A stretch of DNA of 64,000 nt from assembly GCA_964524915.1 (NCBI GenBank), contig CAZGEB010000002.1:5094-69093 (forward strand), written 5' to 3'. The stretch is from an uncultured Candidatus Saccharibacteria bacterium. Lineage in GTDB: Bacteria; Patescibacteriota; Doudnabacteria; UBA920. Below, piece after piece: positions 2,091-60,604 of the stretch. The notes under the pieces were generated by a model that was given only the letters and a program-made list of their open reading frames with translations, was not told where the DNA came from and made no database searches. Position numbers and translations under genes: made by a program. Numbering within the stretch: the first letter of the stretch is position 1; the number at the start of each line of letters is the position of its first letter.

Positions 2091-3447
2091 AATTCCGAAT
2101 ATTTTTATGACACCCATAGTTGCCATAGTAGGACCAATCAATGCTGGAAAATCAACACTTTTTAATCGTCTGGCCGGACAACGTCTAGCTGTCACCTCAG
2201 AGGTGGCTGGAACCACCCGCGACAGACAATACGCGGAAATAGAATGGAACAACAAAGCCTTTCTCTTGGTAGACACGGCCGGGCTTTCTTTTGATGCCAA
2301 TGAAAATGAGATTTTGGAAAAAAATGTTTTGAAACAAATCAAAACTGCCCAGCAAGAAGCAGATATTTTGATTTTCTTGGTAGACGGAAAAGAAACCCCA
2401 GAAAGTTTAGATAGAAAAGTCCTCTTAGAATTTCGCAAAAGCAAAAAGCCAGTAATACTCGCCGTCAACAAATTAGATTCTCCAAAAAAACAGCTGGAAG
2501 CGTCCATTACTTTTGCCAAACTGGGTATCAAAACTATCATTCCCATTTCCTCTACCACAGGTGGCGGCACGGGTGACTTACTTGACGCCATCGCCGCCAT
2601 ATTACCATCTGCATCCCAAGCTACAAGCCAACAGCTACAAGCTACAAGCTCAATCTCTATCGCCATTGTCGGCAAGCCAAATGTGGGCAAAAGTAGTCTC
2701 TTTAACAAAATTATCAAAAGCGAAAGGATGGTAGTCTCACCAGTTCCAGGCACTACCAGAACTGCCATAGACAGCCAAATAGATATAGACGGCAGAGAAT
2801 TTACCTTTATAGATACAGCTGGGCTAAAAAGAAAAGCCAATAAACAAATAGAGCCGGAAATTTTTTCCTCTTACCAAGTTTATAAATCCATCCGCAGAAG
2901 TGATGTGTGTTTTTTGGTGATAGACATAAGCGAAACCATCACCCACCAAGATTTGGCAATCGCAGAAATCATCACTGAACAACAAAAAGGCTGCGTGATC
3001 ATAGCCAACAAGATTGACATTGTAGGAATCAAAGCCACAAAGCAAGAAGCAGACAAAACTCAGGCGCTACTTTCTGCCAAGTTTCCATTCCTCTGGATGT
3101 GCCCACTCTTTTTGGTTTCAGCCAAAACTGGCACAGGAGTCAAAGACGCCATCAAAGCTGCGGAAAGAATCTACACTTCTCGCCATAAAACCATCACCCA
3201 AGAAAGACTAGACGCCTTCTTGGCCAATAGGATGAAAGAAAATCCACCAAAAAGATTGAAAGATCAAAAAGAGCCCAAAGTTTTTGGACTCAAACAAATC
3301 AGTACAGACCCTCCTGCCTTTGCTATTACGGTCAACCAGCCCTCTGCTATTTCTAAACAATTTCAAAATGCATTGCGTAATGCTATTATAAAAGAGTTAG
3401 ATTTCTGGGGCACACCCATCAAAGTGCTGATGAAGAAGAAAATTTAG
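2068..3447 (+). CDS. der: ribosome-associated GTPase EngA/Der (tandem GTPase domains + KH-like C-terminus)
   Basis: Two G-domains: GPINAGKSTLFN..DTAGL and GKPNVGKSSLFN..DTAGL. The start may instead be at 2107 (MTPIVAIVG). Confidence 0.9.
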   Translation: MRKTWNFKIPNIFMTPIVAIVGPINAGKSTLFNRLAGQRLAVTSEVAGTTRDRQYAEIEWNNKAFLLVDTAGLSFDANENEILEKNVLKQIKTAQQEADILIFLVDGKETPESLDRKVLLEFRKSKKPVILAVNKLDSPKKQLEASITFAKLGIKTIIPISSTTGGGTGDLLDAIAAILPSASQATSQQLQATSSISIAIVGKPNVGKSSLFNKIIKSERMVVSPVPGTTRTAIDSQIDIDGREFTFIDTAGLKRKANKQIEPEIFSSYQVYKSIRRSDVCFLVIDISETITHQDLAIAEIITEQQKGCVIIANKIDIVGIKATKQEADKTQALLSAKFPFLWMCPLFLVSAKTGTGVKDAIKAAERIYTSRHKTITQERLDAFLANRMKENPPKRLKDQKEPKVFGLKQISTDPPAFAITVNQPSAISKQFQNALRNAIIKELDFWGTPIKVLMKKKI

Positions 3448-5645: not shown

Positions 5646-6903
5646 TATCAAATTTCTAATTTCTAAAAAACACGCAGCGCTGGCGATAATTATGGCCACT
5701 TGCATCATTATCACAATGGTCGGCTTTTATTTATTTCAAAATAATAAATCTCCTCTCCCCACCTCCAATGCCTCAATAGACACCCTTGAAGATGCGTGGG
5801 CCGTAGCCGCACAAAATATTAAAGATACAAACCAAACAACTGAAGTGACCTTCTTGGCAGTTGGAGATATTTCCCTTTCTCGTAATATCGCCTACACTAT
5901 CCAAAAAAATGGCAACGACCCAGACTACCCGTTTCGTAACATCTCTGCACTCCTCAAATCCACTGATTTTAATTTTGGTAATCTAGAAACTCCTTTTTCA
6001 TCTAGCGATAGGTTTACCCCAAGCAATACTCTAGTATTTAATGCGCCAAAGCTTAATGTCAAAGGCTTGGTAGATAACAATTTTAAAATTCTCAACCTAG
6101 CCAACAACCACTCTTTTGACCAAGGCATGGACGGCATCCGTACTACACAAAAAGTTCTCAAGGAAAACGACATTCAGTTTATGGGCACAGGAGAAAGCCT
6201 GGATGAATCATGGCAGCCTGCAATCATAGAAAAAAATGGAATCAAAATTGGCTTTATCGGCGCATCCTATGCTTCTATAAATGATGGCGGAAAATCTACA
6301 AACAACTTCGTCTCACGTATAGAAGACATTTCCCATCTTCAACTCGCAATTCGTAATACTAAACTCGTAGCAGATTTTCTAGTAGTTACCATGCACGCAG
6401 GCACAGAATACACCACCAAACCAAATCAATCTCAAATAGATTTTGCGCATGCAGCAATTGATGCTGGTGCAGACATGGTCATTGGCGCTCATCCCCACTG
6501 GGTACAAGAAAAAGAAATATATTGCCCGAAATCAGTTTCCTCCCCTGTCCAAGGGGAGGCTAGGTGGGGTGAAAATTCTGCGCAACTCGCAAATTCAAAT
6601 GAATTCACAGAACCTAAACAAACAAATTGTAAACCCATTTATTATTCTCTAGGTAATTTTATTTTTGATCAATCTTGGAGTAAGGAAACCACAGAGGGTT
6701 TGGCTTTAAAGATTACATTAAACAAAACTGTTTCTTCTCTATCCCCTAGTGAGGGGAAAGATGGCTTGCCCGCCAGTGAAAGGCTCTGGCAGGCAGGAGA
6801 TGGGTTGTATGAAAATAATTCACCCACCACTATAAAATCCTTAGAAGAAATTCCTATAAAAATAGAAAACAACTGCTGCGCAGTTGTCTCAAAAAAAGAA
6901 TAA
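5638..6903 (+). CDS. CapA/PgsA-family metallophosphatase (poly-gamma-glutamate capsule synthesis-like)
   Basis: LAVGDISLSR..NFGNLETP..VVTMHAGTEYT..GADMVIGAHPHWVQ. The C-terminal part carries two GC-rich palindromic in-frame insertions. Confidence 0.75.
   Translation: MSNIKFLISKKHAALAIIMATCIIITMVGFYLFQNNKSPLPTSNASIDTLEDAWAVAAQNIKDTNQTTEVTFLAVGDISLSRNIAYTIQKNGNDPDYPFRNISALLKSTDFNFGNLETPFSSSDRFTPSNTLVFNAPKLNVKGLVDNNFKILNLANNHSFDQGMDGIRTTQKVLKENDIQFMGTGESLDESWQPAIIEKNGIKIGFIGASYASINDGGKSTNNFVSRIEDISHLQLAIRNTKLVADFLVVTMHAGTEYTTKPNQSQIDFAHAAIDAGADMVIGAHPHWVQEKEIYCPKSVSSPVQGEARWGENSAQLANSNEFTEPKQTNCKPIYYSLGNFIFDQSWSKETTEGLALKITLNKTVSSLSPSEGKDGLPASERLWQAGDGLYENNSPTTIKSLEEIPIKIENNCCAVVSKKE
6529..6580. 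repeat. GC-rich palindromic element (cctcccc-tgtccaa-ggggagg) in frame inside capA-like CDS
   Basis: Inverted repeat CCTCCCC/GGGGAGG in a 38% GC gene; encodes SSPVQGEARWGE. Confidence 0.5.
6741..6765. repeat. GC-rich palindromic element (tcccct-agtg-agggga) in frame inside capA-like CDS
   Basis: Perfect 6-bp inverted repeat with a 4-nt loop; encodes LSPSEGK. Confidence 0.45.
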
Positions 6904-11447: not shown

Positions 11448-12377
11448 ATGCAAAATTTCGTACCCCAATCCACCGGCGATTTCGAGCTTTTAGATTCAGG
11501 CATGTCCATGCGCCTAGAGAAATGGGGGCAGTATACTTTGTCACGCCCAGACCCACAAGCCATTTGGCAACCTTCTCTTCCCAAAGAAGAATGGGAAAAA
11601 GCTGATGCGGTTTTTGACGATGGCTGGAAAATAAAAAATAAAATCCAGCAACCTTGGGTGTATAAGTACAACCTCTCTGCCCCAATCAAAGCATCGGGGC
11701 ATCTCCCCTCACAAGGAGAGAGTATAAGGTTGTTCGCAAGGCTCACGGCTTTTAAACACACTGGTATTTTTCCAGAGCAAGCCTACAACTGGCAATGGCT
11801 TTCCCACAAGCTAAAAGCTATAAGCTATAAGCTAAAAATCCTCAACCTCTTCGCTTACACAGGTGCTACCACTTGTCTACTAGCTAGCCTTGGCTGCCAG
11901 GTAACTCATGTTGATGCATCAAAACCCTCTATTGAGTGGGCGAAAAATAATGCGAAGCTGAATAATCTCCCAGAAGATAGTATCCGCTGGATTTTAGATG
12001 ATGCGGCCAAGTTTGTAAAAAGAGAAATTAGGCGTGGGGCCGAGTACGACGGCATCATCATGGACCCGCCTGCTTTTGGGCACTCCCCTAGTGGTAAAAC
12101 TTGGAAATTTTCAGAAAATTTACCAGAACTGCTTTCCGATTGCATAAAGCTCTTGAGCCCACATGCACAATTTTTGATAATCAATGCCTACGCCACCAAC
12201 ACTTCTAGCATTGCGCTACAAAATTTATTAGAAGACAGCTTGCCCCCTCCCCTTCTGAGGGGAGGGTTGGGGAGGGGTGGTATTGAATCAGGCGAACTTT
12301 TACTTGAGCAAAAAAATAAACGCCTGCTATCCACAGGCATTCTCGCTAGATGGTCAAAACACACTAATCACAACTAA
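11448..12377 (+). CDS. class I SAM-dependent methyltransferase (RlmI/RlmK-like rRNA methyltransferase fold)
   Basis: FAYTGATTCLLASLGCQVTHVDASK...DGIIMDPPAFG. Carries an in-frame heptamer repeat (11806-11835) and a GC-rich palindromic insertion (12241-12290). Confidence 0.7.
   Translation: MQNFVPQSTGDFELLDSGMSMRLEKWGQYTLSRPDPQAIWQPSLPKEEWEKADAVFDDGWKIKNKIQQPWVYKYNLSAPIKASGHLPSQGESIRLFARLTAFKHTGIFPEQAYNWQWLSHKLKAISYKLKILNLFAYTGATTCLLASLGCQVTHVDASKPSIEWAKNNAKLNNLPEDSIRWILDDAAKFVKREIRRGAEYDGIIMDPPAFGHSPSGKTWKFSENLPELLSDCIKLLSPHAQFLIINAYATNTSSIALQNLLEDSLPPPLLRGGLGRGGIESGELLLEQKNKRLLSTGILARWSKHTNHN
12241..12290. repeat. GC-rich palindromic element (ccccctcccc-ttctg-aggggaggg-tt-ggggagggg) in frame in methyltransferase CDS
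   Basis: Reverse orientation of the CCCTCCCCTCAGAAGGGGAGGGG core. Encodes PPPLLRGGLGRGG. Confidence 0.6.
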
Positions 12378-13662: not shown

Positions 13663-13747
13663 TAATCAGACACATTTACTCACAAACCTCTGTTTTTAAT
13701 AAAAAAAATAATACTCCCACCTATAAGCTATAAACTATAAGCTAATT

Positions 13748-23643: not shown

Positions 23644-24177
23644 TTATTTCTTCTTCCCAATCCCTACCCCACTTGGTCTGACTACTTTGCCGCCGATCAT
23701 GTAGCCAGGCACATATTCCTCCACCACCACACCATCTTCCCCGCCCTCTATTTCTTTAATAGCTTCATGGAAATTTGGATCAAACTTTTTTCCCAAAGCT
23801 TCAACTCTTTGCACTCCCAACTCTTCCAGTGCCTTATCCAACTGCTTGATTAATCCTGCAATACCATTTTTCCAGTCACTGTATTTCTCCACAAATTCTT
23901 TATTCTTTATTCTTAATTCTTCATTCTCCTCTGGCATATGCCTGAGCGCTTGCCCTAAAGAATCCAAGGAAGGCAAAAGTTTTGCCACTGCCACTTCCCT
24001 TGCAAAGTCCACCAACTCTTTACTTTTCTTTTCTTGCCCTGCTTGAAAATTTAGTAGGTCCGCCTGCGCCCGCTTCCAACCATTTAGATTTGCTTCGGCT
24101 TCCGACTTGGCCTCATCCAGTTGTTGGATTAAAGTCTTTTCTTCTTGATCGTTAGTTGTGTAATTATCATCGCTCAT
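23644..24177 (-). CDS. grpE: nucleotide exchange factor GrpE
   Basis: GWKRAQADLLNFQ..and the C-terminal beta-domain GYMIGGKVVRP. Contains an in-frame (TTATTCT)4 repeat at 23891-23918. Confidence 0.9.
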   Translation of the reverse strand: MSDDNYTTNDQEEKTLIQQLDEAKSEAEANLNGWKRAQADLLNFQAGQEKKSKELVDFAREVAVAKLLPSLDSLGQALRHMPEENEELRIKNKEFVEKYSDWKNGIAGLIKQLDKALEELGVQRVEALGKKFDPNFHEAIKEIEGGEDGVVVEEYVPGYMIGGKVVRPSGVGIGKKK

Positions 24178-28536: not shown

Positions 28537-28988
28537 AATTTTTCCTTTACCCCCTCCCCTTTCTGCGAGTTCGCCGAAGCTTTAGCGTAGGAGAATGAGG
28601 GGAGGGTTGGGGAGGGGTTGGTTACTACTTGTTTAATAACCTCCAGCACTCCTTCTAAATTTTTATCAATCTCATTATTCCAAAAATGTAAAACAATGTA
28701 GCCTTGCGATTCCAAAAATTCTTGTTTCTGATTATCTGTAAATTTACCACTGGCCTCATTATGTTGACTACCATCCAACTCAATAGCCAACTTTTTGGCT
28801 CGACAAGAAAAATCAACAATCACAGCACCGATTTGTACTTGGCGCTTAAATTGTAAGCCTAAAAAACGATGGGCTCGCAGACGTGACCACAGCTTCGCCT
28901 CCCAAGGAGTTTGAGACTTACGAAGTTGTCGGGAATAAGACAAATAAGGCTCATGAACAAGTCGTTTTGGCATACTTTCATTATACAA
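28533..28988 (-). CDS. DUF559 endonuclease-domain protein (Vsr/restriction-endonuclease-like fold)
   Basis: LRK..T..E..LW..LR...GLQFKRQVQIGAVIVDFSC...LAIELDGSQH...VLHFWNNEI. Its C-terminal ~25 aa are encoded by the GC-rich element at 28549-28625. Confidence 0.6.
   Translation of the reverse strand: MYNESMPKRLVHEPYLSYSRQLRKSQTPWEAKLWSRLRAHRFLGLQFKRQVQIGAVIVDFSCRAKKLAIELDGSQHNEASGKFTDNQKQEFLESQGYIVLHFWNNEIDKNLEGVLEVIKQVVTNPSPTLPSFSYAKASANSQKGEGVKEKL
28549..28625. repeat. GC-rich palindromic element with long loop (CCCCTCCCC...GAGGGGAGGG-TT-GGGGAGGGG)
   Basis: The loop contains cgccgaagctttagcgtagg, which recurs between the two tRNA-Lys genes (10770-10790). Confidence 0.6.
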
Positions 28989-32316: not shown

Positions 32317-33741
32317 CTATATTTTCTCTCCTAAGTAAGCTGGTAAATCTTTTACAGAAATGCGAACCTGTTCTTGTGTGTCACGGTCGCGTACGGTTAC
32401 AGTATCATCCTCCAAAGTTTGGAAATCTACGGTAATGCAAAAAGGTGTACCAATTTCATCTTGTGAATAATACCTCTTGCCTACATTGCCACGGTCATCC
32501 CAAGCTATGGGTAGGAGTTGCGAGTTGCGAGTTGCGAGTTGCGAGTAAATACTGCGGGCTTTTTCTACCAGCTCGGGTTTGTTTTTTAGCAGTGGAAACA
32601 CTGCACATTTATAAGGAGCTAATTTTGGTGGTAGCGCAAGCCACACTCGTTTTACTTGCGCGTTGTCGTCTAGATCTTCTCTGTAAAACTCAAAAAGAGT
32701 AGATAAAAACAAACGGTTAAAACCCAAAGAAGACTCCACTATATATGGATTAAACCTCTCGCCTGTTGCCTCGTCAAAATAAGTCAAATCTTGACCGGAA
32801 AATTTGGAGTGTTGATCCAGGTCGTAGCTGCCACGATTGTGCAGCCCTTCTATTTCCTTAAATCCCATTTCGGAAAACTCGTACTCTATATCCCATGCAT
32901 CCCTAGCGTAAAAAGCTCTCTCATCCTCTTCGTGTTGACGCCACCTGACACGCTCTTTACTAAATCCCAGAAAATCCACATAAAAATTTTTACGATATTC
33001 TTTCCACTCTTCATAATGTTTGTCTGCGTCCACGGGCGCACAAAAATACTGCACGTCCATTTGTTCAAATTCCCGAGTTCTAAAAAGAAAATTCTTTACT
33101 GTAATTTCATTACGAAAAGCCTTGCCTATTTGGGCAATACCAAAAGGGAGTTTCCTACGAGTAGTATTTTGCACCGACCTCCAGTCCACATAAATATTTT
33201 GGCAACTTTCCCCCTTCAAATAAACAAGGTTACTTGCTTCTTCTGTAGGGCCTAAAAATGTCTTTACTAATAAATTAAACTTTTTGGCAGCGGATAATGC
33301 ATTACCATCTGGACTTTTCAGTCCTTTTGACTGGATGAGGTCACTAGCTTGTTCCGCGGTCAAGGACCCTGCATTTTCCATTAAACCTGCCTCTTCTATC
33401 AAATGATCTGCTCTGTATCTTTTGTGCGTCACCAGATCTTCTACAAGTAAATCAGCAAAACCACCTACGTGACCACTGGCCTCCCAAACTCTTGGGTGCA
33501 TAAAAATCGCACCCTCAATTTCCACCACATCTTCCCGCTTTTGCGTATTCCAATATCTCCAAGCATGTTCTAAATTTTTCTTGAGCAAAAACCCCAAAGG
33601 ACCAAAGTCGTAGGTAGCAGCAAAACCCCCATAAATTTCTGAAGAGGGAAATACAAACCCACGACGCTTACAGAGCGCCACTATTTTTTCCATCTTTCCC
33701 TCCGAAGCCTTGGCAGAGGATAGTAAATTTTCTTGTTGCAT
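32317..33741 (-). CDS. glyQS: glycine--tRNA ligase (dimeric GlyQS type)
   Basis: MEKIVALCKRRGFVFPSSEIYGGFAATYDFGPLG and class II motifs. Carries an in-frame (GAGTTGC)4 repeat at 32515-32545. Confidence 0.9.
   Translation of the reverse strand: MQQENLLSSAKASEGKMEKIVALCKRRGFVFPSSEIYGGFAATYDFGPLGFLLKKNLEHAWRYWNTQKREDVVEIEGAIFMHPRVWEASGHVGGFADLLVEDLVTHKRYRADHLIEEAGLMENAGSLTAEQASDLIQSKGLKSPDGNALSAAKKFNLLVKTFLGPTEEASNLVYLKGESCQNIYVDWRSVQNTTRRKLPFGIAQIGKAFRNEITVKNFLFRTREFEQMDVQYFCAPVDADKHYEEWKEYRKNFYVDFLGFSKERVRWRQHEEDERAFYARDAWDIEYEFSEMGFKEIEGLHNRGSYDLDQHSKFSGQDLTYFDEATGERFNPYIVESSLGFNRLFLSTLFEFYREDLDDNAQVKRVWLALPPKLAPYKCAVFPLLKNKPELVEKARSIYSQLATRNSQLLPIAWDDRGNVGKRYYSQDEIGTPFCITVDFQTLEDDTVTVRDRDTQEQVRISVKDLPAYLGEKI
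32515..32545. repeat. heptanucleotide tandem repeat (AGTTGCG/GAGTTGC)x4 in frame inside glyQS
   Basis: gagttgcgagttgcgagttgcgagttgcgag encodes SQLATRNSQL on the minus strand. Identical tract in tgt (34660-34691). Confidence 0.9.
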
Positions 33742-33750
33742 ATAAATAAC

Positions 33751-33888
33751 TTATTTGCGCAATTTTTTAAGAATAATCTGTCCGATTTCTCGATGCTTGG
33801 GACAAGTATCCTGATGAGTTTCTGAAGAAGTAGCACCACAACTGCAAATAACTTTTTCTGTCTCCTGATTCACTTCTGTGTTTGACAT
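33751..33888 (-). CDS. hypothetical 45-aa Cys-containing peptide
   Basis: MSNTEVNQETEKVICSCGATSSETHQDTCPKHREIGQIILKKLRK. Below the ORF-track cutoff; found by manual translation. Possible Zn-ribbon (C..C...C..H). Confidence 0.25.
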   Translation of the reverse strand: MSNTEVNQETEKVICSCGATSSETHQDTCPKHREIGQIILKKLRK

Positions 33889-34111
33889 ATTTCAGCTTAT
33901 TAAAAATAATAATAAAACAAAAAACTCATCACTAAATATTAGTTTAACACTAAATACTTAGGGACGAGTTTTGAAAAAATAAACCCGCGGTTCCACCCTA
34001 CTTCCCCGCCGATAGCGGGACCACTTTATTAAAATTTATAGCTCCAGCCTGCCACAGCCTTCATAGCTACCATAAGTATATGACAACGACCCCCATGTGT
34101 CAAAAACGAAT

Positions 34112-34384
34112 TTATTTTTTATAATACCTAGGAATCTCGCCACCACCATACTGTTCAGAAGAATTTTCATTATCATCTGGCCATGGTTGAAGCCCTCGAC
34201 GCTCTATTCTTCTAGCAATTTCTTCCGCACTTAAACCACATATAGATTTGTTGTGTTGTGAATGATGAGGCTCGTTAAACACAATCCCAGCTGGACGAGG
34301 AGACAGTCTTAGCTGTTTTGGATCAAAAAAAACCGTCACAGAAAAAATCATGCCGCACTTTTTACACTGTTTTATATCTCTCAT
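34112..34384 (-). CDS. hypothetical small protein
   Basis: MRDIKQCKKCGMIF... 90-aa ORF immediately downstream of tgt. Confidence 0.3.
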   Translation of the reverse strand: MRDIKQCKKCGMIFSVTVFFDPKQLRLSPRPAGIVFNEPHHSQHNKSICGLSAEEIARRIERRGLQPWPDDNENSSEQYGGGEIPRYYKK

Positions 34385-35556
34385 GACTTAATTTCCCTAA
34401 AATCTTCCACCATCTTATCAAAATAATCAAACTCTATTGCTAGCCTGATTTTGCCCATGAGGTTTAGATAAAATCTGAGGTTGTGCATGGTGGCAAGGCG
34501 TAAAGCTAAAGGCTCTCCTGTGGCAAAAAGATGCCTGAGATAAGCTCTGGTGTGATTTAAACAAGCATAGCAATTACAATTTGGATCAATGGGCGTAAAA
34601 TCCTCCGCATACTTCTGTACACGAATATCTATGGTCTCGTAGCCCTCCCCGATTTCTAGTTGCGAGTTGCGAGTTGCGAGTTGCGAGGAAATATATAGTC
34701 TGCCGTGACGCGCTTCTCTACTTGGAATCACACAGTCAAAAGTATCACACCCTCTAGCAACTGCTTGCACTATATCAAAGGGGGTACCCACACCAAGCAA
34801 ATGTTTTGGTGAATTTTCTGGTAAATGTGGGACAGCAGACTCTACCGCGATCATCATTTCATCGTGACCTTCCCCTACTGCCACTCCACCGATAGCAAAA
34901 CCCTCAAACCCCAAAGCCACCATGTCTTCAGCTGATTTCTTTCTTAAATCTGGGAAAGATGCGCCTTGTACAATCCCCCAAAGTTTTTGTCCGCGGTTTA
35001 CCGGGTCACCATCCAAAACTATTCTTTGATGCTCCTTTACAGCCCTCTCTGCCCATCTTTTTGTCAGCTCTATAGACTGTTTTGATCTTTCATACTCAAA
35101 AGGAAAGCCTGGAAAATCATCTAGAATCAAAGCCACATCTGATCCTAAATTTGCTTGAATCTGCACAGACTTTTCTGGAGACAACATTTCTTCTCTACCG
35201 TCTAGGTCAAATTGAAAAAACACTCCGGCTTCTGTCACTTTTCGCATTTTTGCCAAAGAAAAAACTTGAAAGCCGCCACTGTCAGTAAAAATCGGCCCTT
35301 GCCAATTCATAAACTGGTGGAGTCCTCCGGCTTTATAAACAAGTCCATCCCCAGGGCGTTGCCACAAATGATAGGTGTTGGCAAGGATCATTTCTGCCCC
35401 CCAAAATTTCAGCTCTTCACTCGTGACACTTTTTACTGTGCCGCGCGTGCCAATAGGCAAAAAGATCGGCGTATGAACCTGACCGTGATGCGTATTTATA
35501 ATTCCAAGCCTTGCTTTTGACTTAGAATCTTTTTTTAAAATTTCAAAATATGGCAT
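34381..35556 (-). CDS. tgt: queuine tRNA-ribosyltransferase
   Basis: LPIGTRGTVKSV..., zinc site CNCYACLNH. Carries an in-frame (AGTTGCG)4 repeat at 34660-34691. Confidence 0.9.
   Translation of the reverse strand: MPYFEILKKDSKSKARLGIINTHHGQVHTPIFLPIGTRGTVKSVTSEELKFWGAEMILANTYHLWQRPGDGLVYKAGGLHQFMNWQGPIFTDSGGFQVFSLAKMRKVTEAGVFFQFDLDGREEMLSPEKSVQIQANLGSDVALILDDFPGFPFEYERSKQSIELTKRWAERAVKEHQRIVLDGDPVNRGQKLWGIVQGASFPDLRKKSAEDMVALGFEGFAIGGVAVGEGHDEMMIAVESAVPHLPENSPKHLLGVGTPFDIVQAVARGCDTFDCVIPSREARHGRLYISSQLATRNSQLEIGEGYETIDIRVQKYAEDFTPIDPNCNCYACLNHTRAYLRHLFATGEPLALRLATMHNLRFYLNLMGKIRLAIEFDYFDKMVEDFREIKS
34660..34691. repeat. heptanucleotide tandem repeat (AGTTGCG)x4 in frame inside tgt
   Basis: agttgcgagttgcgagttgcgagttgcgag encodes SQLATRNSQL, the same peptide as in glyQS. 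Confidence 0.9.
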
Positions 35557-36117: not shown

Positions 36118-38340
36118 TTAATTATCTCTTTGTCCGTTTCCACCATGTGGTTTCCAATCAAAACCTCTTTGACCGCGGTCGTGAGGAGGGCCTTGGCGTT
36201 CTGGTGCTGGCTTTGCAAAAGGTCTGTGAGTTAAATTGATACGGCCTTGACTATCTATTTCTTGTACTTTCACTTTCAAAGTGTCGCCAATATTTACTAC
36301 ATCCTCTACACGATTTACTCTGTAATTTGCAAGCTCAGAAATATGTACCATACCATCTTGACCTGGAATCAATTCCACAAAAGCACCAAAGTTCATTATG
36401 CGTACTACTTTACCTTCAAATTCTTCACCTACTTGAATTTGGCGAGTGAGATCTTTGATCCACTTCACAGCTTTTGCATTTCCATCTTCATTGACTGAGC
36501 AAACCATTACAAGACCTGAGTCTTCTATGTCTATCTTCACACCAGTTTCAGCAATGATTTGGTTAATCACTTTGCCTCCGGGACCTATCACATCGCGAAT
36601 CTTGTCTACTGGTATATAGAAGCTGACAATGCGTGGCGCATAAGGAGACATTTCAGGGCGAGGCGCTGGCAAGGCTTCTTTCATTTTTTGAATAATGTAA
36701 AGTCTACCAGGCTTTGCTTGCTCCAGAGCTTTTGCAAGTATTTCTACTGTAAGTCCTTTGACTTTGATATCTAGCTGCAAAGCCGACACGCCTTCTTCTG
36801 AGCCTGTGACCTTGAAATCCATGTGACCATTAAAGTCTTCTATACCAGCGATATCAGTCAAAACTTTGTAATTTGAAGGATTACTTTCATCCATTACCAG
36901 ACCCATCGCCACACCACCAATAACTTTTGAAATAGGCACACCAGCGTCCATTAGCGCCAAAGAAGACCCACAAGTACTTGCCATGGAAGTGGAACCATTA
37001 CTGGCTATAGCTTCACTCACCAATCTCATGGTATAAGGGAAATCTTTTTGAGCAGGCAAAACCCCAGACGCATCCAAAGCTTTTTCAGCCAAAGCCCCGT
37101 GTCCAATTTCACGACGGCCAGGACCCCTTAGAGGTGACACTTCACCAACTGAGTAACCAGGCATGTTGTAGTGATGAATATAGCGCTTGTTTGTGCCCTC
37201 AGCTGGATCCTCTATACCATCTAGCAGCTGCTCATCGCCTTTGCTACCCAAGGTCACAACTGTCAAAACCTGAGTTTCACCGCGAGTAAATAAAGCTGAC
37301 CCATGAGTACGAGGCAAGATCCCAACTTCGCAGGAAATTTTGCGAGTCTCGTCTAGTCTTCTACCGTCTACTCTACGATCATTTTCTAATATTTGCTTTT
37401 GCTGATACTTTTTTAATATATAATCTGCGCAAAAAGTCACCTCTTTGGCAATTTTTTCTTGCTTGATAATTTCAGGTTTATCCGCAAACTCAACTGAAAT
37501 GATTTCTTCAATTTCTTTTAAGACAGCATTTATTCTCTCTTCTCTTTCAGCTTTTTCTTTCACATACACAGCAGCTTCAATTTTTTCTTCTGTCAAAAGC
37601 TCTTTTGTCCTGGCCATTATACTTTCATTTGGCAAAACAAAAGCAGCGGCAGCTTTTTCTTTGCCAATTTCGGTTCGCCACTGATTCTGCATCTCCACTA
37701 ATTCACCCAAAAACTTTTGAGCAAATTTTACACCCTCTACAATATCCACTTCACTCACCAATTCAGCACCCATCTCCACCATCAAGATGTGCTCTCCGGT
37801 ACCAGAGACCACTAAATCCATAGAAGATTTTTCTCGCTGTTCATGAGTTGGATTGACTACATATTGACCATTAATTTTTCCAACCCTCACAGCTGCCACA
37901 GGACCATCAAAAGGAATGTCAGAAATAGTCAAAGCAGTGGAAGCTGCTACCACAGCCAGCATATCTGGATCATTCTGCATGTCTACTGACAACACTGTAA
38001 CTACTACCTGCACATCATTGCGCATGCCGTAAGGAAAAAGTGGACGAAGTGTGCGATCGATCACACGCCCCGACAAAATAGCGTCATCGGTTGCCCGACC
38101 TTCACGCTTGACCCATCTACTACCCTTGATTTTGCCAGCAGCGTAAAGACGCTCTTCGTAATCCACCAAAAGTGGAAAATAATCTAAATCCCGAGGCTTG
38201 TCTGTCATTACACAAGTCGCCAAAACTACTGTATCTCCCAAACGAGCCAAAACTGCACTATTGGCCTGTAAAGCCATGCGTCCAGTTTCAAAACTCATTT
38301 TTTCTGTACCAATAATTCTTTCTATCGTTTGCACTGCCAT
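36118..38340 (-). CDS. pnp: polyribonucleotide nucleotidyltransferase (PNPase)
   Basis: Two RNase PH domains plus KH and S1 domains, with a Gly/Arg-rich tail. Start set at MAVQTIERIIG (38340). The 76 codons upstream in the ORF track lie over MITE-like repeats and are unlikely to be coding. Confidence 0.93.
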   Translation of the reverse strand: MAVQTIERIIGTEKMSFETGRMALQANSAVLARLGDTVVLATCVMTDKPRDLDYFPLLVDYEERLYAAGKIKGSRWVKREGRATDDAILSGRVIDRTLRPLFPYGMRNDVQVVVTVLSVDMQNDPDMLAVVAASTALTISDIPFDGPVAAVRVGKINGQYVVNPTHEQREKSSMDLVVSGTGEHILMVEMGAELVSEVDIVEGVKFAQKFLGELVEMQNQWRTEIGKEKAAAAFVLPNESIMARTKELLTEEKIEAAVYVKEKAEREERINAVLKEIEEIISVEFADKPEIIKQEKIAKEVTFCADYILKKYQQKQILENDRRVDGRRLDETRKISCEVGILPRTHGSALFTRGETQVLTVVTLGSKGDEQLLDGIEDPAEGTNKRYIHHYNMPGYSVGEVSPLRGPGRREIGHGALAEKALDASGVLPAQKDFPYTMRLVSEAIASNGSTSMASTCGSSLALMDAGVPISKVIGGVAMGLVMDESNPSNYKVLTDIAGIEDFNGHMDFKVTGSEEGVSALQLDIKVKGLTVEILAKALEQAKPGRLYIIQKMKEALPAPRPEMSPYAPRIVSFYIPVDKIRDVIGPGGKVINQIIAETGVKIDIEDSGLVMVCSVNEDGNAKAVKWIKDLTRQIQVGEEFEGKVVRIMNFGAFVELIPGQDGMVHISELANYRVNRVEDVVNIGDTLKVKVQEIDSQGRINLTHRPFAKPAPERQGPPHDRGQRGFDWKPHGGNGQRDN

Positions 38341-38360
38341 ATTTTTACCTTTCTTATGGT

Positions 38361-38462
38361 TTGTCATCCCAGAATTTTCTGCTTTGAGAAAATATCTGGG
38401 ACCCAGATTGGATTCCGGATCGCACTCGCCTCCGCCAGCCGGCGGACTCGTTTGTCCGGAAT
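38361..38462. mobile_element. MITE-like element (TTGTCATCCCAG...CCGGAATGACAT) in the pnp leader, containing the CTCCGCCAGCCGGCGGACTC hairpin
   Basis: Terminal inverted repeats related to the 31213 and 40540 elements. Core 38424-38443 is identical to topA 7679-7698. Confidence 0.5.
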
Positions 38463-38502
38463 GACATACCCACATGCAGTGACTTGCAAGCTCACAAAGA
38501 CA

Positions 38503-38527
38503 TTGTCTTGTCATCCCCGAGTAGTCG
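38503..38527. repeat. collapsed MITE-like hairpin TTGTCATCCCCGAG-TAG-TCGGGGAT
   Basis: Same terminal motif with arms directly abutting. Confidence 0.45.
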
Positions 38528-38587
38528 GGGATCTTTTCTTGCTTAATGAAATATGAAAATTTCCACACTCATACTTCTTAAGTAGAG

Positions 38588-39538: not shown

Positions 39539-40522
39539 ATGAATTCCAAGAATCAAATAGAGCAATATATCCAAGATTTCCTAGAATATTGCGAAATTGA
39601 GAAAAATCGCAGCCCCAAAACTTTGGTGGCTTATGCTCATTATTTAAAAAGATTTGCTGATTTCACCAAAAGCAAAAACATCTCATCTCCGGACAAAATA
39701 GACCTAGAAGCCGTCAGGCAATTTCGCCTACATTTAAACAGGCTCAGTGACGACAAAGGCAAAAACCTCAAACTGATCAGTCAATCTTATCACATCATAG
39801 CTCTTCGGGCTTTCTTGAAATATTTATCCAAACGAGATGTGACCACCCTTGCCGCAGAAAAAATCGAACTGCCAAAAAATCCCTCACGCGAAGTCACCGC
39901 TCTTTCAGACGATGAGCTCCACAGAATTTTAGCCGCAGTAAACGACAACGAAGACCAAATGCAGCAACTCCGAGACCGCGCCATCCTACTCACCCTCTTC
40001 TCTTCTGGGGTGCGTATTTCTGAATTGGTTTCCCTCACCCAAAAAATGGTAAGCCTAGACAGGGGCGAATTTACTGTCCGTGGAAAAGGCGATAAACTCC
40101 GACTAGTTTTTTTGTCTACAGAAGCTACCGCTGCTATAAAAAATTATTTAAGCAAAAGAAAAGACAACCACCCTGCCCTTTTTATAGCTCACGGTAAATC
40201 TAAAAATGAATTAGAAAGAGAAATCTCCGCCCAATCCTCTGATCTATCAGGTATAAGGTATAAGGTATCAGCTACCGGCCTCACCGCAAGGTCAATCCAG
40301 AGACTCATCCACAAATACGCCATGCTTGCTGGAGTTTACAAAAAAGTCACCCCCCACACCCTCCGACACTCTTTTGCAACCGATCTTTTACGTAATGGCG
40401 CAGATATTCGCTCTGTACAAACCATGCTTGGCCACGCCTCAATCACCACTACGCAAATCTACACTCATGTAACCAATGAATCTTTGCGTGAAGTACACAA
40501 AAAATTTCACGGAAAAAATTAG
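39539..40522 (+). CDS. tyrosine recombinase XerC/XerD family
   Basis: R..HTLRHSFATDLL..GHASITTTQIYTHV (catalytic RHRY). Contains an in-frame (GGTATAA)n repeat at 40251-40270. Confidence 0.85.
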   Translation: MNSKNQIEQYIQDFLEYCEIEKNRSPKTLVAYAHYLKRFADFTKSKNISSPDKIDLEAVRQFRLHLNRLSDDKGKNLKLISQSYHIIALRAFLKYLSKRDVTTLAAEKIELPKNPSREVTALSDDELHRILAAVNDNEDQMQQLRDRAILLTLFSSGVRISELVSLTQKMVSLDRGEFTVRGKGDKLRLVFLSTEATAAIKNYLSKRKDNHPALFIAHGKSKNELEREISAQSSDLSGIRYKVSATGLTARSIQRLIHKYAMLAGVYKKVTPHTLRHSFATDLLRNGADIRSVQTMLGHASITTTQIYTHVTNESLREVHKKFHGKN

Positions 40523-46331: not shown

Positions 46332-47684
46332 ATGAGAAAATACTTTATTTATTTATTTGGGCTAATAAATTTAAGTCTTATCTTTTATTTCTGGGCGGCA
46401 AACTCCTGGCATCTTTTAAGCCAAGACCGTGCCAGTATAAATCTGGCCATAGGCAGGCTTTCCGGTTTACTGCTGGTTTCTTGTATCTTACTGCAATTTC
46501 TCATCATGAGTCGTGCCCCTGCCTTAGAGCAAACTTTCGGGCTAGACAAGCTCTCCCGTCTACACCATTTCATTGGCAAATACCTGGTCATAATATTTTT
46601 ATTTTGCCATGTACTACTTATAACGATCGCCTATGCAAGCTTTAGCGAGCGCGGGTTTTTCTCTCAATACCTAGGTTTTCTGAAATTTGAGGACCTACCA
46701 AATGCCATGATTGCTCAATGGCTGTTTATTTTTGTGATTATTTATTCCATTTTTATGGTGCTCAAAAAATGGAATTTTGAAAAATGGTACTACGCACACC
46801 TCTCAGTTTATATAGCCATCATCCTCGCCTTCGGTCATCAACTAGAACTCGGTGGTGACTTTGCGGAAAGTAAAATCTTCACCTGGTACTGGTACCTACT
46901 CTATGCCTTTGTTGCCCTAATGCTGGCAATATACCGCTTTGGAAAACCCTTATGGCTGTTTTATAAACATCGCTTTTATATAGAAAAGATAATAGCCGAG
47001 ACTCCAGATGTAACTTCTGTATATATTTCTGGCAAACAAATGGATAAATTCAAATTCCATCCCGGACAATTTGTCATAGTGAGATTTTTGGATAAACAAA
47101 GGCGCTGGCAAGCCCACCCTTTTTCTCTGTCGCAACCTTTTAACGGACAGAATATCCGTCTCTCTATAAAAGCCTCTGGCGACTTCACCTCTCAAGCCTC
47201 ACTCCTCACTCCTCACTCCTCACTCCTAATTGAGGGCCCCTATGGTGTCTTTACTCCTAATAAATTGAAAAATAATAAAGCACTGCTCATCGCGGGCGGT
47301 ATTGGCATTACCCCTATCCGCGGAATAATGGAGGCTTTAGGCGAGAATAAAAAAGAAGCCATACTACTCTACGCCAACAAAACAGAAAAAGATATTGCCC
47401 TGCGTGAAGAAATAGAAAAACTTGGAGAAAAATACCACTTCCCAATTCACCACATACTAAACAACCAGCCCAAGTCTCCCAATCTCAAGTCTCAAGTCTC
47501 AAGCCTCATCACTATACACGATGGTATGATAAATCAAAATCTCATACAGTCTGAGGTAGATGATATCACGCACTGGGAGGTATTCCTTTGTGGTCCCCCA
47601 CCCATGATGACCGCTATCACAAAAGTTTTAATCGCCTTGGGTGTCCCCAAACAAAGTATTTACTTTGAAAGATTTAGTTTGTAA
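46332..47684 (+). CDS. NOX-like ferric-reductase-domain flavocytochrome (TM heme domain + FAD + NAD(P)H-binding domains)
   Basis: Six TM helices with paired His, HPFSLS (FAD), GGIGITP (NAD). Carries two in-frame heptamer tandem repeats. Confidence 0.7.
   Translation: MRKYFIYLFGLINLSLIFYFWAANSWHLLSQDRASINLAIGRLSGLLLVSCILLQFLIMSRAPALEQTFGLDKLSRLHHFIGKYLVIIFLFCHVLLITIAYASFSERGFFSQYLGFLKFEDLPNAMIAQWLFIFVIIYSIFMVLKKWNFEKWYYAHLSVYIAIILAFGHQLELGGDFAESKIFTWYWYLLYAFVALMLAIYRFGKPLWLFYKHRFYIEKIIAETPDVTSVYISGKQMDKFKFHPGQFVIVRFLDKQRRWQAHPFSLSQPFNGQNIRLSIKASGDFTSQASLLTPHSSLLIEGPYGVFTPNKLKNNKALLIAGGIGITPIRGIMEALGENKKEAILLYANKTEKDIALREEIEKLGEKYHFPIHHILNNQPKSPNLKSQVSSLITIHDGMINQNLIQSEVDDITHWEVFLCGPPPMMTAITKVLIALGVPKQSIYFERFSL
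47191..47225. repeat. heptanucleotide tandem repeat (CACTCCT)x4-5 in frame inside the NOX-like gene
   Basis: Encodes SLLTPHSSLL between the FAD and NAD subdomains. Confidence 0.85.
47471..47500. repeat. heptanucleotide tandem repeat (CAAGTCT)x3 in frame inside the NOX-like gene
   Basis: ctcaagtctcaagtctcaagcctc encodes NLKSQVSSL. Confidence 0.8.
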
Positions 47685-59278: not shown

Positions 59279-60604
59279 ATGACCAAACTTAAACCCTCCA
59301 AAAAAACCATTTATTTAGACCACGCGGCTACTACCCCAATCCGCGAAGAAGTCTTGCGCGTGATGAAGCCATATTTTGCAGAAAAATTTGGTAACCCTTC
59401 TAGTCTTTACAAGCTGGGAGTAGAAGCAAAGAATGCAATAGAGGATGCTAGAAAATCTATTGCGGAGAATCTAAACGCCAGAGCAGAAGAAATCATTTTT
59501 ACCGCTGGAGGTAGTGAGAGTGTAAATTTGGGAATACTTGGAGTTGCCAAGAATCACAAAGCAAAACAACCTCTCTCTATCTCTCCCCTCACAAGGCGAG
59601 AAAACCGGAAAAGAACGCACGGACACATCATCACTTCCAAAATAGAGCATCATGCTGTATTAAATACATTAGAACAACTGGAAAAAGAGGGCTTTGCCGT
59701 GACACAAATCAGTGTGGACAATGAAGGTTTTTTTGATATTGAAGAATTTAAAAAAGCTATCCGCCCAGATACTTTTCTGGTAAGTCTCATGTACGCCAAT
59801 AATGAAATAGGCACCATAGAGCCTATCCGTGAAATTTCAAAAATAATCAAACAGGAAAATCTACACCGCTTCCAACTAAAAACTAAAAACTCTCAACTAA
59901 AAACCCCCATCCTCCTCCACACCGACGCCTGCCAAGCAGCTGGCTTTTTGGATCTAAATGTGCAAAGACTTGGCGTGGACCTAATGAGCATCAATGCCAG
60001 TAAAATCTACGGCCCCAAACAAATTGGTTGCTTGTATGCAAAAAAAGGGATCGCCCTCTCCCCTATTATTTTTGGGGGCGGGCAAGAAAGAAATCTCAGG
60101 AGCGGTACAGAGAATGTTGCAGGCATAGTTGGTTTTGCTAAAGCTTTGGAATTGGCGGCTTTGGAAAGAGATAAAGAGGTACAGAGACTAGAGAAATTAA
60201 GGGATTATTTATTTAAAGAAATAATTAAAATAAATAAAAACTCTGTTTTAAATGGTCCGAGTATCGCAAATACAACCTCTCCCCTAACCCCTCTCCTCAG
60301 AAGGCGAGGGGAAACAGGTCGCCGCCTACCAAATAATTTAAATATTACATTTCCAAATGCTGAAGGTGAAGCGCTCATGCTTTACTTGGATGCTTACAAT
60401 ATCGCAGTTTCCACAGGGAGCGCCTGCACGGCCTACGAAACTGACCCTTCTCATGTACTGAAAGCTGTTGGGTTAAGCGATGAGGATGCCAAATCTAGCC
60501 TGCGCATCACATTGGGAAAATCTACCAACAAAAAAGATTTAGAGTACTTTATAAAAGCCCTCAAAGAAACTCTCGAAATAGTTTCAAAAAATACAGTTGC
60601 GTAA
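59279..60604 (+). CDS. iscS: cysteine desulfurase (IscS/NifS family) carrying two in-frame repeat insertions
   Basis: LDHAATTP, PLP-Lys SINASKIYGPKQIG, active Cys STGSACTA. Insertions at 59571-59610 (SISPLTRRENRKRT) and 60271-60320 (TSPLTPLLRRRGETGRRL). Confidence 0.9.
   Translation: MTKLKPSKKTIYLDHAATTPIREEVLRVMKPYFAEKFGNPSSLYKLGVEAKNAIEDARKSIAENLNARAEEIIFTAGGSESVNLGILGVAKNHKAKQPLSISPLTRRENRKRTHGHIITSKIEHHAVLNTLEQLEKEGFAVTQISVDNEGFFDIEEFKKAIRPDTFLVSLMYANNEIGTIEPIREISKIIKQENLHRFQLKTKNSQLKTPILLHTDACQAAGFLDLNVQRLGVDLMSINASKIYGPKQIGCLYAKKGIALSPIIFGGGQERNLRSGTENVAGIVGFAKALELAALERDKEVQRLEKLRDYLFKEIIKINKNSVLNGPSIANTTSPLTPLLRRRGETGRRLPNNLNITFPNAEGEALMLYLDAYNIAVSTGSACTAYETDPSHVLKAVGLSDEDAKSSLRITLGKSTNKKDLEYFIKALKETLEIVSKNTVA
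59571..59610. repeat. degenerate GC-rich palindromic element (CTCTCCCC-TCACAA-GGCGAG) in frame in iscS
   Basis: Related to CCCTCCCCTCAGAAGGGGAGGG. Confidence 0.5.
60271..60320. repeat. GC-rich palindromic element (CTCTCCCCT-AA-CCCCTCTCC-TCAGAA-GGCGAGGGG) in frame in iscS
   Basis: Same TCAGAAGG loop as the 28981 copy. Confidence 0.6.

What the first reader, a model, noticed from the sequence alone, without database searches (positions are those of the whole stretch)
32515..34691. Identical heptamer microsatellite (AGTTGCG)4 inserted in frame in two unrelated essential genes, glyQS and tgt
Both genes contain about 30 bp of perfect (AGTTGCG)n on the coding (minus) strand. Both read in the same phase and give the identical peptide SQLATRNSQL: GlyRS ...YSQLATRNSQLLPIAWDD and Tgt ...ISSQLATRNSQLEIGEGY. 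The two tracts are about 2.1 kb apart. The same heptamer, phase and peptide in two different enzymes argues for templated insertion or gene conversion rather than independent slippage. Heptamers only preserve frame in multiples of three units, so copy-number change would toggle these essential genes.
Basis: seen in the sequence. Interest (0 to 1): 0.8.

Follow-up and report, generated by a model that had tools for sequence, protein, structure and literature searches.

The report
Recurrent in-frame heptamer repeat cassettes
Two identical 30-base runs of a 7-base repeat sit in frame in the GlyRS and Tgt genes of a tiny CPR bacterium; they are two of many such roughly 4.3-copy heptamer arrays that settle in tolerant protein loops in this group, and they are not a gene on/off switch.

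Summary
Perfect (AGTTGCG)4.6 at 32515-32546 and (AGTTGCG)4.3 at 34658-34687 lie in frame in glyQS and tgt of a Patescibacteria (Doudnabacteria-like) genome, and both encode SQLATRNSQL. The identical peptide is not an extra coincidence: because 7 = 1 mod 3, every frame of a heptamer array encodes the same cyclic heptapeptide. The pair is not special either. Period-7 arrays are about 100-fold enriched in the window and sit in loops of at least 10 housekeeping genes. In related CPR genomes, arrays in coding DNA come in one size (29-33 nt, about 4.3 units). They recur at the same loops (GlyRS, Tgt, RsmH) with lineage-specific units. A sister strain (93-96% nt identity) has the GlyRS tract but a different insert in Tgt, so the Tgt copy is younger or has turned over. 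The two copies also share a 5-nt ancestral 5' flank. Identical units are about 45 times more frequent within than between genomes. Best reading: known-type heptanucleotide SSRs, size-limited by reading frame, with the Tgt copy templated from an existing copy. A phase-variation switch is not supported. The generating mechanism remains inferred.

The parts
32515..32546 (-). Perfect heptamer array: (CGCAACT)4.6 on the coding strand, (AGTTGCG)n on the + strand. Encodes GlyRS residues 400-409, SQLATRNSQL.
   Evidence: The same tract is present in the sister-strain contig L122.
34658..34687 (-). Perfect heptamer array (CGCAACT)4.3 encoding Tgt residues 291-300, SQLATRNSQL. Its sequence is exactly CTCGCAACTCGCAACTCGCAACTCGCAACT (30 nt).
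   Evidence: Identical in JGI contig L123. Absent from sister strains L121 and L122, which carry an 84-nt GC-rich insert at the same place.
32317..33741 (-). glyQS (class II glycyl-tRNA synthetase, 474 aa). The array lies at the end of helix 389-405 and in the following loop of the anticodon-binding domain.
34381..35556 (-). tgt (queuine tRNA-ribosyltransferase, 391 aa). The array forms the tip of beta-hairpin 286-310.
32547..32551 (-). 5' flank TATTT (coding strand) shared with the Tgt site. It is part of the conserved Ile-Tyr codons and is a candidate microhomology.
34689..34693 (-). 5' flank TATTT (coding strand) shared with the GlyRS site. It is part of the conserved Tyr-Ile codons and is present in sister strains that lack the tract.
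6340..6357 (+). Decayed copy of the same unit (CAACTCG CAATTCG TAAT; peptide QLAIRNT) in a CapA-like (PGA_cap) gene.
6581..6594 (+). Second decayed copy (CGCAACTCGCAAAT; peptide AQLAN) in the same CapA-like gene.
47197..47227 (+). (CCTCACT)4.4 array in a ferric-reductase-like oxidoreductase. It shares the junction TCTCAAG|CCTCA with the array at 47471-47508.
47471..47508 (+). (TCTCAAG)-type array in the same gene.
59874..59904 (+). (AACTAAA)4.4 array (QLKTKNSQLKT) in an IscS-like cysteine desulfurase. It falls in a 14-residue gap against solved IscS.
40245..40271 (+). (TATAAGG)-type array in a XerC/D-type recombinase, in a 14-residue gap against XerD. The same unit occurs at 20159-20175, and the orthologous array is present in L122.
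2617..2650 (+). (CAAGCTA)4.9 array in the inter-domain linker of Der/EngA.
11804..11837 (+). (AAGCTAT)-type array in a SAM-dependent methyltransferase. A similar unit occurs at 13719-13744.
23895..23927 (-). (AAAGAAT)4.7 array in grpE.

Best explanation
The two tracts are ordinary-type heptanucleotide simple-sequence repeats of a unit this genome favours (CGCAACT). This lineage, like many Patescibacteria, accumulates such arrays in surface loops of housekeeping proteins.

Shown:
- Period-7 arrays are hugely enriched.
- In coding DNA they come almost only as about 4.3 copies (29-33 nt).
- They recur at the same loops (GlyRS helix end, Tgt hairpin, RsmH loop) in different lineages, with different but related units in the same register.
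- The same unit recurs within a genome far more often than between genomes.
- The GlyRS tract is shared with a sister strain, whereas the Tgt tract is not.

Inferred:
- A 7-nt unit keeps the reading frame only in steps of three units (21 nt). Arrays in essential coding sequence are therefore trapped at one size, roughly one unit plus three, and +/-1-unit slippage products are purged.
- Perfect arrays are kept homogeneous by intra-array conversion or three-unit slippage, while the unit drifts between lineages.
- The Tgt copy was written from an existing copy, most simply the GlyRS one 2.1 kb away in the same orientation. The route would be microhomology-primed template switching or short-patch ectopic conversion, using the shared TATTT-N-C flank.
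- Selection then keeps only in-frame, stop-free, hydrophilic products in tolerant loops.

The identical decapeptide follows automatically, because all three frames of a heptamer array encode the same cyclic heptapeptide.
For: Enrichment: 12 perfect period-7 runs of at least 17 nt, against 0-2 for periods 6 and 8-15 and 0.125 expected in Markov-1 simulations.

Hosts and loop positions.

Frame arithmetic.

Strain comparison: Tgt proteins P0001 and P0243 are nearly identical outside the loop but carry a different insert. The L122 contig ends inside the identical GlyRS tract.

Shared flank: 35 of 36 nt identical, and the flank is ancestral at both sites.

No seed: 32 canonical GlyRS relatives match the unit by at most 5 nt, which equals chance.

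Size quantisation in a sample not chosen for repeats (74 loci, 613 kb): run lengths are 16-20 nt or 29-33 nt, with one run of 25 nt between them. All the 29-33-nt arrays are in long ORFs.

Recurrent sites and related units in register.

Unit identity: 7 of 39 within-genome pairs against 1 of 258 between genomes. In the window, 2 of 66 pairs, P about 0.004.

Structure: the tracts map to a hairpin tip (Tgt) and to a helix end plus loop (GlyRS).

Literature: heptanucleotide SSRs are the most abundant long SSR class in many bacteria, and genome-specific favoured heptamers are known (PMC4679880, PMC4692102).
Against: - The unit-sharing statistics for this window rest on only 1-2 pairs. Most of the within-genome excess comes from one other genome (L174).
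- The flank microhomology is a post hoc observation (roughly P = 0.001-0.005).
- The sister strain could have lost a Tgt tract when the GC-rich element arrived, so the direction of copying is not proven.
- At the GlyRS site the array overwrites sequence, with a net gain of only 3-4 residues. Neither simple insertion nor a simple +21-nt expansion explains this.
- How a first 4-unit array arises in one step is unknown.
- Array-bearing GlyRS alleles in separate lineages share a following Pro-(Ile/Val)-Ala-Trp that I cannot explain.
- No read data were available.
Confidence: 0.55

Rival explanations
1. Two independent in-situ expansions. Each site happened to hold a CGCAACT-like seed that replication slippage amplified, so the identical unit is a coincidence helped by a small pool of viable (stop-free, hydrophilic) units.
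For: Both sites are recurrent array sites in other lineages with other units. Units at the GlyRS site in three lineages share the register and a (T/A)CTC core starting at the conserved Tyr/Phe codon, as if they were generated locally. One between-genome identical unit pair exists (L205 and L247). Removing 21 nt from the Tgt tract leaves a plausible short loop, ISSQLEIGEGY.
Against: The between-genome identity rate is only 0.4% per pair, so about 0.1 identical pairs are expected in the window against 2 seen. No seed is visible in canonical relatives. A single-copy heptamer cannot slip, and +/-1-unit intermediates would frameshift GlyRS. The shared 5' flank would be a further coincidence.
Confidence: 0.17
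2. A dedicated copy-and-paste process. An approximately 30-nt four-unit heptamer cassette behaves as a very small mobile element, or is synthesised by an enzyme that reiterates a 7-nt template, and is inserted at preferred sites.
For: In 120 loci from many phyla the tract has a modal discrete form, CTCGCAACTCGCAACTCGCAACTCGCAACT, usually preceded by T. Lengths peak at 30-33 nt and the start phase is non-uniform (40 of 92). Up to 7 copies occur in one Thermoguttaceae MAG. The array size is uniform across units in CPR.
Against: The discrete form is dominated by a few related Thermoguttaceae MAGs, so the counts are not independent. The unit is not globally favoured: scrambled controls give 5, 16 and 16 hits against 10. 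The 30-nt mode is also what the reading-frame constraint predicts. The tract has no hairpin or terminal inverted repeats. No candidate enzyme was found near the tracts. Most arrays within a genome have different units.
Confidence: 0.12
3. Phase-variable contingency loci. Changes in copy number switch GlyRS and Tgt on and off.
For: One- or two-unit changes would shift the frame (arithmetic). Heptanucleotide repeats do drive phase variation of some surface genes in Haemophilus (PMC8262952).
Against: GlyRS is indispensable, and the hosts are housekeeping enzymes rather than surface or restriction-modification genes. The tracts are short (4.3-4.6 copies). The available assemblies agree on length. 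Arrays in coding DNA are uniformly about 4.3 copies across genomes, which is the signature of purifying selection against frame-shifting variants.
Confidence: 0.03
4. The encoded peptide or the RNA/DNA motif is itself selected, for example as a binding site or an interaction heptad.
For: In long open frames the tract is read as SQLATRN 55 times and as SCELRVA 20 times. Array-bearing GlyRS alleles converge on ...LLP(I/V)AW.
Against: A sister strain does without the tract in Tgt. Units differ freely between lineages at the same site. Model confidence is low at the Tgt tract. The orientation bias is equally explained by poor tolerance of the Cys-containing reverse peptide.
Confidence: 0.05
5. Assembly or sequencing artefact.
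For: Contig L122 breaks inside the tract, which shows that the repeat troubles assemblers.
Against: Three assemblies made with different pipelines contain the tracts. Both ORFs stay in frame and are intact on both sides. The same class of arrays occurs in isolate genomes.
Confidence: 0.01

Closest known systems
Heptanucleotide long simple-sequence repeats of bacteria (Mrazek et al. 2007, as described in PMC4679880 and PMC4692102)
   Same: Perfect head-to-tail 7-nt units. Period 7 is strongly over-represented relative to other long periods. Present in many phyla.
   Different: Those were described mainly as intergenic, with repeats in coding regions expected to have unit lengths that are multiples of three. 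Here the arrays sit in frame inside core housekeeping genes, have one size (about 4.3 copies), and recur at the same protein loops.
Genome-favoured heptamers: TAACTGA in Beggiatoaceae, cyanobacteria and Bacteroidetes (PMC4679880); GGGAATC in Xanthomonas and GGGGA(T/C)T in Nostoc (PMC4692102); cyanobacterial STRR
   Same: One heptamer is repeated at many places in a genome while related heptamers are not. The distribution across phyla is patchy and no transfer mechanism is known.
   Different: Those are mostly intergenic (upstream of start codons, between genes), and TAACTGA contains stop codons. Here several units coexist per genome, the arrays are coding and stop-free, and AGTTGCG is not globally favoured.
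Perfect amino-acid tandem repeats in Borg elements (PMC9879509)
   Same: Perfect, apparently young nucleotide repeats inside ORFs that add flexible segments. Homologous proteins carry similar repeats at similar places.
   Different: Borg ORF repeats always have unit lengths divisible by three, are unique within each genome, and are thought to arise from local seeds. Here the unit is 7 nt, the copy number is frame-limited, and units are shared between loci.
SSR-mediated phase variation (e.g. heptanucleotide repeats controlling HMW1A in Haemophilus, PMC8262952)
   Same: A change of repeat number would alter expression or reading frame.
   Different: Host genes are essential or housekeeping, tracts are short, no length polymorphism was seen, and the size distribution indicates that variants are purged.
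Small dispersed repeats of Nostoc (Elhai et al. 2008; recalled from memory, not read here)
   Same: Very short (21-27 nt) dispersed sequences, often associated with tandem heptamers, proposed to be mobile.
   Different: Those elements are hairpin-forming and not themselves tandem repeats. The tract here has no secondary structure.

Membership tests
Heptanucleotide long SSR | Perfect or near-perfect tandem copies of a 7-nt unit, at least 3 copies | tested here: met
   4.6 and 4.3 perfect copies.
Heptanucleotide long SSR | Longer or more frequent than expected by chance in that genome | tested here: met
   0.01 matches expected against 7 found. 12 period-7 runs against 0.125 expected.
Heptanucleotide long SSR | Copy number varies between strains through slippage | tested here: inconclusive
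   L123 has an identical Tgt tract. L122 has at least 30 nt of the same GlyRS tract before the contig ends. No reads were available.
Genome-favoured heptamer (STRR / TAACTGA type) | The same unit at multiple separate loci of one genome, above chance | tested here: met
   Two perfect and two decayed CGCAACT loci in 64 kb. Within-genome against between-genome identity: 7/39 against 1/258.
Genome-favoured heptamer (STRR / TAACTGA type) | Predominantly intergenic location | tested here: not met
   Most arrays lie inside long ORFs of identified housekeeping genes.
Phase-variable contingency locus | Repeat-number change shifts the frame or alters promoter spacing | tested here: met
   A 7-nt unit: only multiples of three units keep the frame.
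Phase-variable contingency locus | Host gene is dispensable or switchable (surface, restriction-modification, host interaction) | tested here: not met
   GlyRS, Tgt, TopA, GrpE, Der, IscS and others.
Phase-variable contingency locus | Length heterogeneity within populations | not testable with these tools
   Needs reads. The assemblies agree on length.
MITE / REP / small hairpin mobile element | Terminal inverted repeats or a stable hairpin | tested here: not met
   Folding energies -0.6 and -3.7 kcal/mol; z = +0.7 and -1.5.
MITE / REP / small hairpin mobile element | Copies with conserved ends in unrelated flanks | tested here: inconclusive
   A modal 30-nt form with fixed phase exists, but it is dominated by related Thermoguttaceae MAGs and is also predicted by the frame constraint.
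Borg-type amino-acid tandem repeats | Unit length divisible by three | tested here: not met
   The unit is 7 nt. Criterion taken from PMC9879509.
Borg-type amino-acid tandem repeats | Repeat sequence unique within the genome | tested here: not met
   The same unit occurs in glyQS, tgt and the capA-like gene.

The most novel reading that the evidence does not exclude
Patescibacteria (and some Planctomycetota) may have a process that writes a four-unit, roughly 30-nt heptamer cassette in one step into coding DNA. The cassettes would then spread between loci, and perhaps between lineages by short-patch recombination, which would fit the shared ...LLP(I/V)AW junction in separate GlyRS lineages. 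They would be the smallest known self-propagating insertions and a steady source of new loops in core enzymes.
Probability: 0.15. Interest if true: 0.8.

Novelty: new variant of a known kind. Interest (0 to 1): 0.55.

Why it matters
Heptamer repeats have been known for nearly twenty years to be the commonest long microsatellite in bacteria, but their origin and the reason for the 7-nt period remain open. This locus, set in its context, gives a clean system for that question:
- Arrays inside essential genes, where reading frame allows only three-unit steps.
- A single observed array size.
- Recurrent landing sites (GlyRS, Tgt, RsmH) in many lineages.
- A strain pair that differs by presence or absence of one array.

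It also shows that core enzymes of genome-reduced CPR bacteria keep gaining short repeat-encoded loops. This matters for annotation, for alignments and phylogenies of marker proteins, and for assembly, since contigs break at these tracts.

Tried and rejected
1. Treating the cross-phylum occurrence of (AGTTGCG)3 (at least 120 loci) as a sign of a special or horizontally spreading unit. Rejected: composition-matched, stop-free scrambled heptamers are equally common in viral contigs (10 against 5, 16 and 16).
2. Reading the fixed 30-nt form and phase as proof of a mobile cassette. Weakened: most canonical copies come from a few related Thermoguttaceae MAGs, and the frame constraint predicts the same size.
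3. Looking for an in-situ seed at the GlyRS site in 32 canonical relatives. Nothing beyond chance was found.
4. Testing whether other genomes carry the same unit at both GlyRS and Tgt. Not possible, because only the closest relatives keep the two genes adjacent.
5. Looking for strain-level copy-number variants through the metagenome scan. No same-species contigs were returned; the maximum was 82% identity.
6. My first unit-sharing test on 9 strict arrays was only marginal (P about 0.06). The objective set of 12 gave P about 0.004.
7. Hairpin, REP or MITE nature of the tract: rejected.
8. Rfam families overlapping the tracts: none.
9. DNA for the GlyRS orthologue P0149 could not be fetched.
10. 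The literature searches found no description of in-frame heptamer arrays in CPR genes.
Full report
**What is there.**
- The + strand carries perfect (AGTTGCG) runs at 32515-32546 (32 nt, 4.6 copies) and 34658-34687 (30 nt, 4.3 copies). A 14-mer search finds only these two tracts plus one decayed copy at 6581, against 0.01 matches expected.
- Both tracts lie in minus-strand ORFs. ORF 32317-33741 is a 474-aa class II glycyl-tRNA synthetase (E=8e-117 to PDB 8t5n). ORF 34381-35556 is a 391-aa queuine tRNA-ribosyltransferase (E=3e-102 to PDB 10fa).
- On the coding strand the unit is CGCAACT. Both tracts encode SQLATRNSQL, at GlyRS residues 400-409 and Tgt residues 291-300.
- The best-named relatives are Candidatus Doudnabacteria and other Patescibacteria. 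The identical GlyRS protein is on record from a 75.9-kb NCBI contig.
- JGI contig L123 is 100% identical over 2525 nt, including the Tgt tract. Logan contig L122, from another strain, ends inside the same GlyRS tract.
- Both genes are intact on both sides of their tracts, so this is not an artefact.

**What the identical peptide means.** Because 7 = 1 mod 3, shifting the frame by one base is the same as shifting by one unit. All three frames of (CGCAACT)n therefore give the same cyclic peptide, (SQLATRN)n. 'Same phase, same peptide' follows from having the same DNA on the same strand and is not independent evidence.

**Insertion or not.**
- In Tgt the tract falls in a 13-15-residue gap against solved Tgt structures. 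Among 120 relatives this loop ranges from about 2 to more than 80 residues. In an AlphaFold model (mean pLDDT 83.9) the tract is the low-confidence tip of hairpin 286-310.
- In GlyRS, nearly all relatives have 10-11 residues between the conserved Tyr and Trp (…IYxxLRKDFMVAW…), and the window has 14. The net gain is only 3-4 residues, so the array overwrites the end of helix 389-405 and the following loop.

**The pair is part of a genome-wide habit.**
- The window has 12 perfect period-7 runs of at least 17 nt, against 2 for period 6, none for periods 8-15, and 0.125 expected in Markov-1 simulations.
- Arrays lie in Der/EngA, a CapA-like gene (two decayed CGCAACT copies), TopA, a SAM methyltransferase, GrpE, a XerC/D recombinase, a ferric-reductase-like protein (two arrays sharing a junction), an IscS-like desulfurase, GlyRS and Tgt.
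- Where I checked, they fall in alignment gaps against solved homologues: IscS 14 residues, XerD 14, Der 4.

**Context in the literature.** Heptanucleotide repeats are the most abundant long SSR class in many bacteria. A polymerase-footprint slippage idea has been proposed. Genome-specific favoured heptamers (TAACTGA, GGGAATC, STRR) are known, mostly intergenic (PMC4679880, PMC4692102). I found no description of in-frame heptamer arrays in CPR genes. Borg tandem repeats are the nearest coding-region analogue, but their units are always divisible by three and are unique within each genome (PMC9879509).

**Is AGTTGCG special?**
- (AGTTGCG)3 occurs in at least 120 stretches across many phyla. It is often inside long open frames, where it reads SQLATRN more often than the reverse peptide (55 against 20).
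- A 30-nt form, CTCGCAACTCGCAACTCGCAACTCGCAACT, is modal, and the start phase is non-uniform.
- However, that class is dominated by a few related Thermoguttaceae MAGs. Composition-matched, stop-free scrambled heptamers are just as common in viral contigs (10 against 5, 16 and 16).
- The unit is therefore not globally favoured, and the cross-phylum hits reflect the general abundance of heptamer SSRs.

**Strain comparison.**
- The 90%-identity cluster of the window's Tgt has four members. P0001 and P0243 (contigs L121 and L122; 91-97% nt identity to the window) are almost identical outside the loop.
- At exactly the same place they carry an 84-nt GC-rich, strongly structured insert (-22.8 kcal/mol, z=-4.0) instead of the tract. 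L122 nevertheless has the same GlyRS tract.
- So the GlyRS copy predates the split of these strains, and the Tgt loop has turned over since.
- The two window copies match over 36 nt with one mismatch. The extra 5 nt (TATTT) belong to conserved Ile-Tyr and Tyr-Ile codons, and they are present in strains that lack the Tgt tract. This is a possible microhomology.

**A sample not chosen for repeats.** A GlyRS-based metagenome scan gave 80 loci, of which 74 are distinct (613 kb).
- Perfect period-7 runs there are either 16-20 nt (near chance) or 29-33 nt (nine arrays), with one of 25 nt and none longer. All the 29-33-nt arrays are in long ORFs.
- Seven of the ten arrays of 25 nt or more lie at three protein positions:
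  - the same GlyRS site (L243/L244 AATCAGC x4.6; L254 TACTCAC x4.6);
  - the Tgt loop (L202 GAATCTC x4.1);
  - one loop of RsmH/MraW, in four lineages with four related units.
- Further relatives agree. The Tgt loop carries AAGTAGA, AAATCCG-like or AAACAGT arrays. GlyRS in L174 carries a perfect (ATTCTCG)4 in the same register as the window's array.
- A rough tree with the site masked places the array-bearing GlyRS alleles next to canonical sisters, which suggests repeated gains.
- Canonical relatives show no seed beyond chance.

**Unit sharing.** For arrays of at least 20 nt in CPR loci, identical units occur in 7 of 39 within-genome pairs against 1 of 258 between-genome pairs. In the window it is 2 of 66 pairs, against about 0.1 expected (P about 0.004). 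Most of the excess comes from one other genome (L174), so the support from this window alone is modest.

**How it most likely works.**
- Shown: the enrichment, the single array size in coding DNA, the recurrent loops, units shared within genomes, and the presence/absence difference between strains.
- Inferred:
  1. A 7-nt unit preserves frame only in steps of three units. Arrays in coding sequence are therefore held at about one unit plus three (28-33 nt), and +/-1-unit products are purged.
  2. Arrays stay perfect through intra-array conversion or three-unit slippage, while the unit drifts between lineages.
  3. Occasionally an array is copied to another locus by microhomology-primed template switching or short-patch ectopic conversion. 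The Tgt tract is most simply such a copy of the GlyRS tract, which lies 2.1 kb away in the same orientation.
  4. Selection keeps stop-free, hydrophilic, in-frame products in tolerant loops.
- A phase-variation role is not supported. The hosts are housekeeping genes, the tracts are short, the assemblies agree on length, and the uniform size points to purging of variants.

**Unresolved.**
- How a first four-unit array arises in one step.
- Why the GlyRS arrays overwrite rather than add sequence.
- Why array-bearing GlyRS alleles in separate lineages share a following Pro-(Ile/Val)-Ala-Trp that about 60 canonical alleles lack.
- Whether a dedicated cassette-writing mechanism exists.

**Verdict.** The finding is a new variant of a known kind of repeat, of moderate interest.

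Noticed in passing
L121:2825-2909 and L122:6519-6603 (orthologous to window 34647-34686): Sister strains carry an 84-nt GC-rich, strongly folding insert (-22.8 kcal/mol, z=-4.0) in frame in the Tgt loop (CHRGGGNPEPGSPGSLTPRQSPEDDILR) in place of the heptamer tract. Other Tgt orthologues have similar Pro/Arg/Gly-rich inserts (e.g. ...SPRLRRTAPD...). This is a second class of intragenic insertion in these AT-rich genomes.
   Followed up: partly
window 7680-7699 and 38430-38449: The identical 20-nt GC-rich palindromic sequence CTCCGCCAGCCGGCGGACTC lies inside topA and inside the N-terminal extension of the long pnp ORF (both encode ...SPPAGG...). It suggests a small dispersed GC-rich element that inserts into coding sequence.
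   Followed up: partly
window 33957-34073 (-): Weak T-box leader match (36.3 bits, below the gathering score of 93; E=2e-6 for this 661-nt search) upstream of glyQS. A 45-aa Cys-rich small ORF (about 33757-33894, minus strand) lies between it and the glyQS start.
   Followed up: no
L213:4720-4744, L231:8763-8795, L235:3678-3710, L247:10191-10219: Four CPR lineages carry perfect heptamer arrays (GAATCAC, AAATTTC, AAAATCA, TCAAAAT) at the same loop of RsmH/MraW, in the same register. This is a third recurrent array site besides GlyRS and Tgt.
   Followed up: partly
L174:180-207, 700-731, 2790-2809, 15222-15349 (GCA_025449695.1): Another Patescibacteria genome has its own favoured unit (GGAATCT/ATTCCAG) at four or more loci, in both orientations within one gene. 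It also has an 81-nt (ACCAGAT)11.6 array at the start of an ORF.
   Followed up: no
GlyRS site in window 32500-32546, L124, L174, L176, L222, L254, and protein P0149: Array-bearing GlyRS alleles from separate lineages end in ...(L)LP(I/V)AW or ...PIAW, whereas about 60 canonical alleles have ...(M/N/S)VAW. This could be convergence, short-patch recombination, or a conserved cassette end. Unresolved.
   Followed up: partly
window 12236-12282 and 28599-28621: GGGGAGGGG(T) motifs. At 12236-12282 they form an inverted repeat (CCCCTCCCC...GGGGAGGG), perhaps a terminator or a REP-like hairpin.
   Followed up: no
window 34112-34384 (-) versus L122:6912-7304: Gene content between tgt and glyQS differs between strains. 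The window has a 90-aa ORF with no Pfam hit, and L122 has a DUF559 endonuclease-like gene at that position.
   Followed up: no
window 36118-38568 (-): The longest pnp ORF is 816 aa against about 750 aa in relatives. Its N-terminal extension contains the GC-rich element and is probably not all translated.
   Followed up: no
L001-L120, e.g. L029, L031, L047, L052, L059, L114, L115 (one Thermoguttaceae MAG): Gut and rumen Thermoguttaceae carry many copies of a fixed 30-31-nt form, T-(CTCGCAA)4-CT, inside long ORFs in all three frames. This looks like a within-lineage dispersed cassette.
   Followed up: partly
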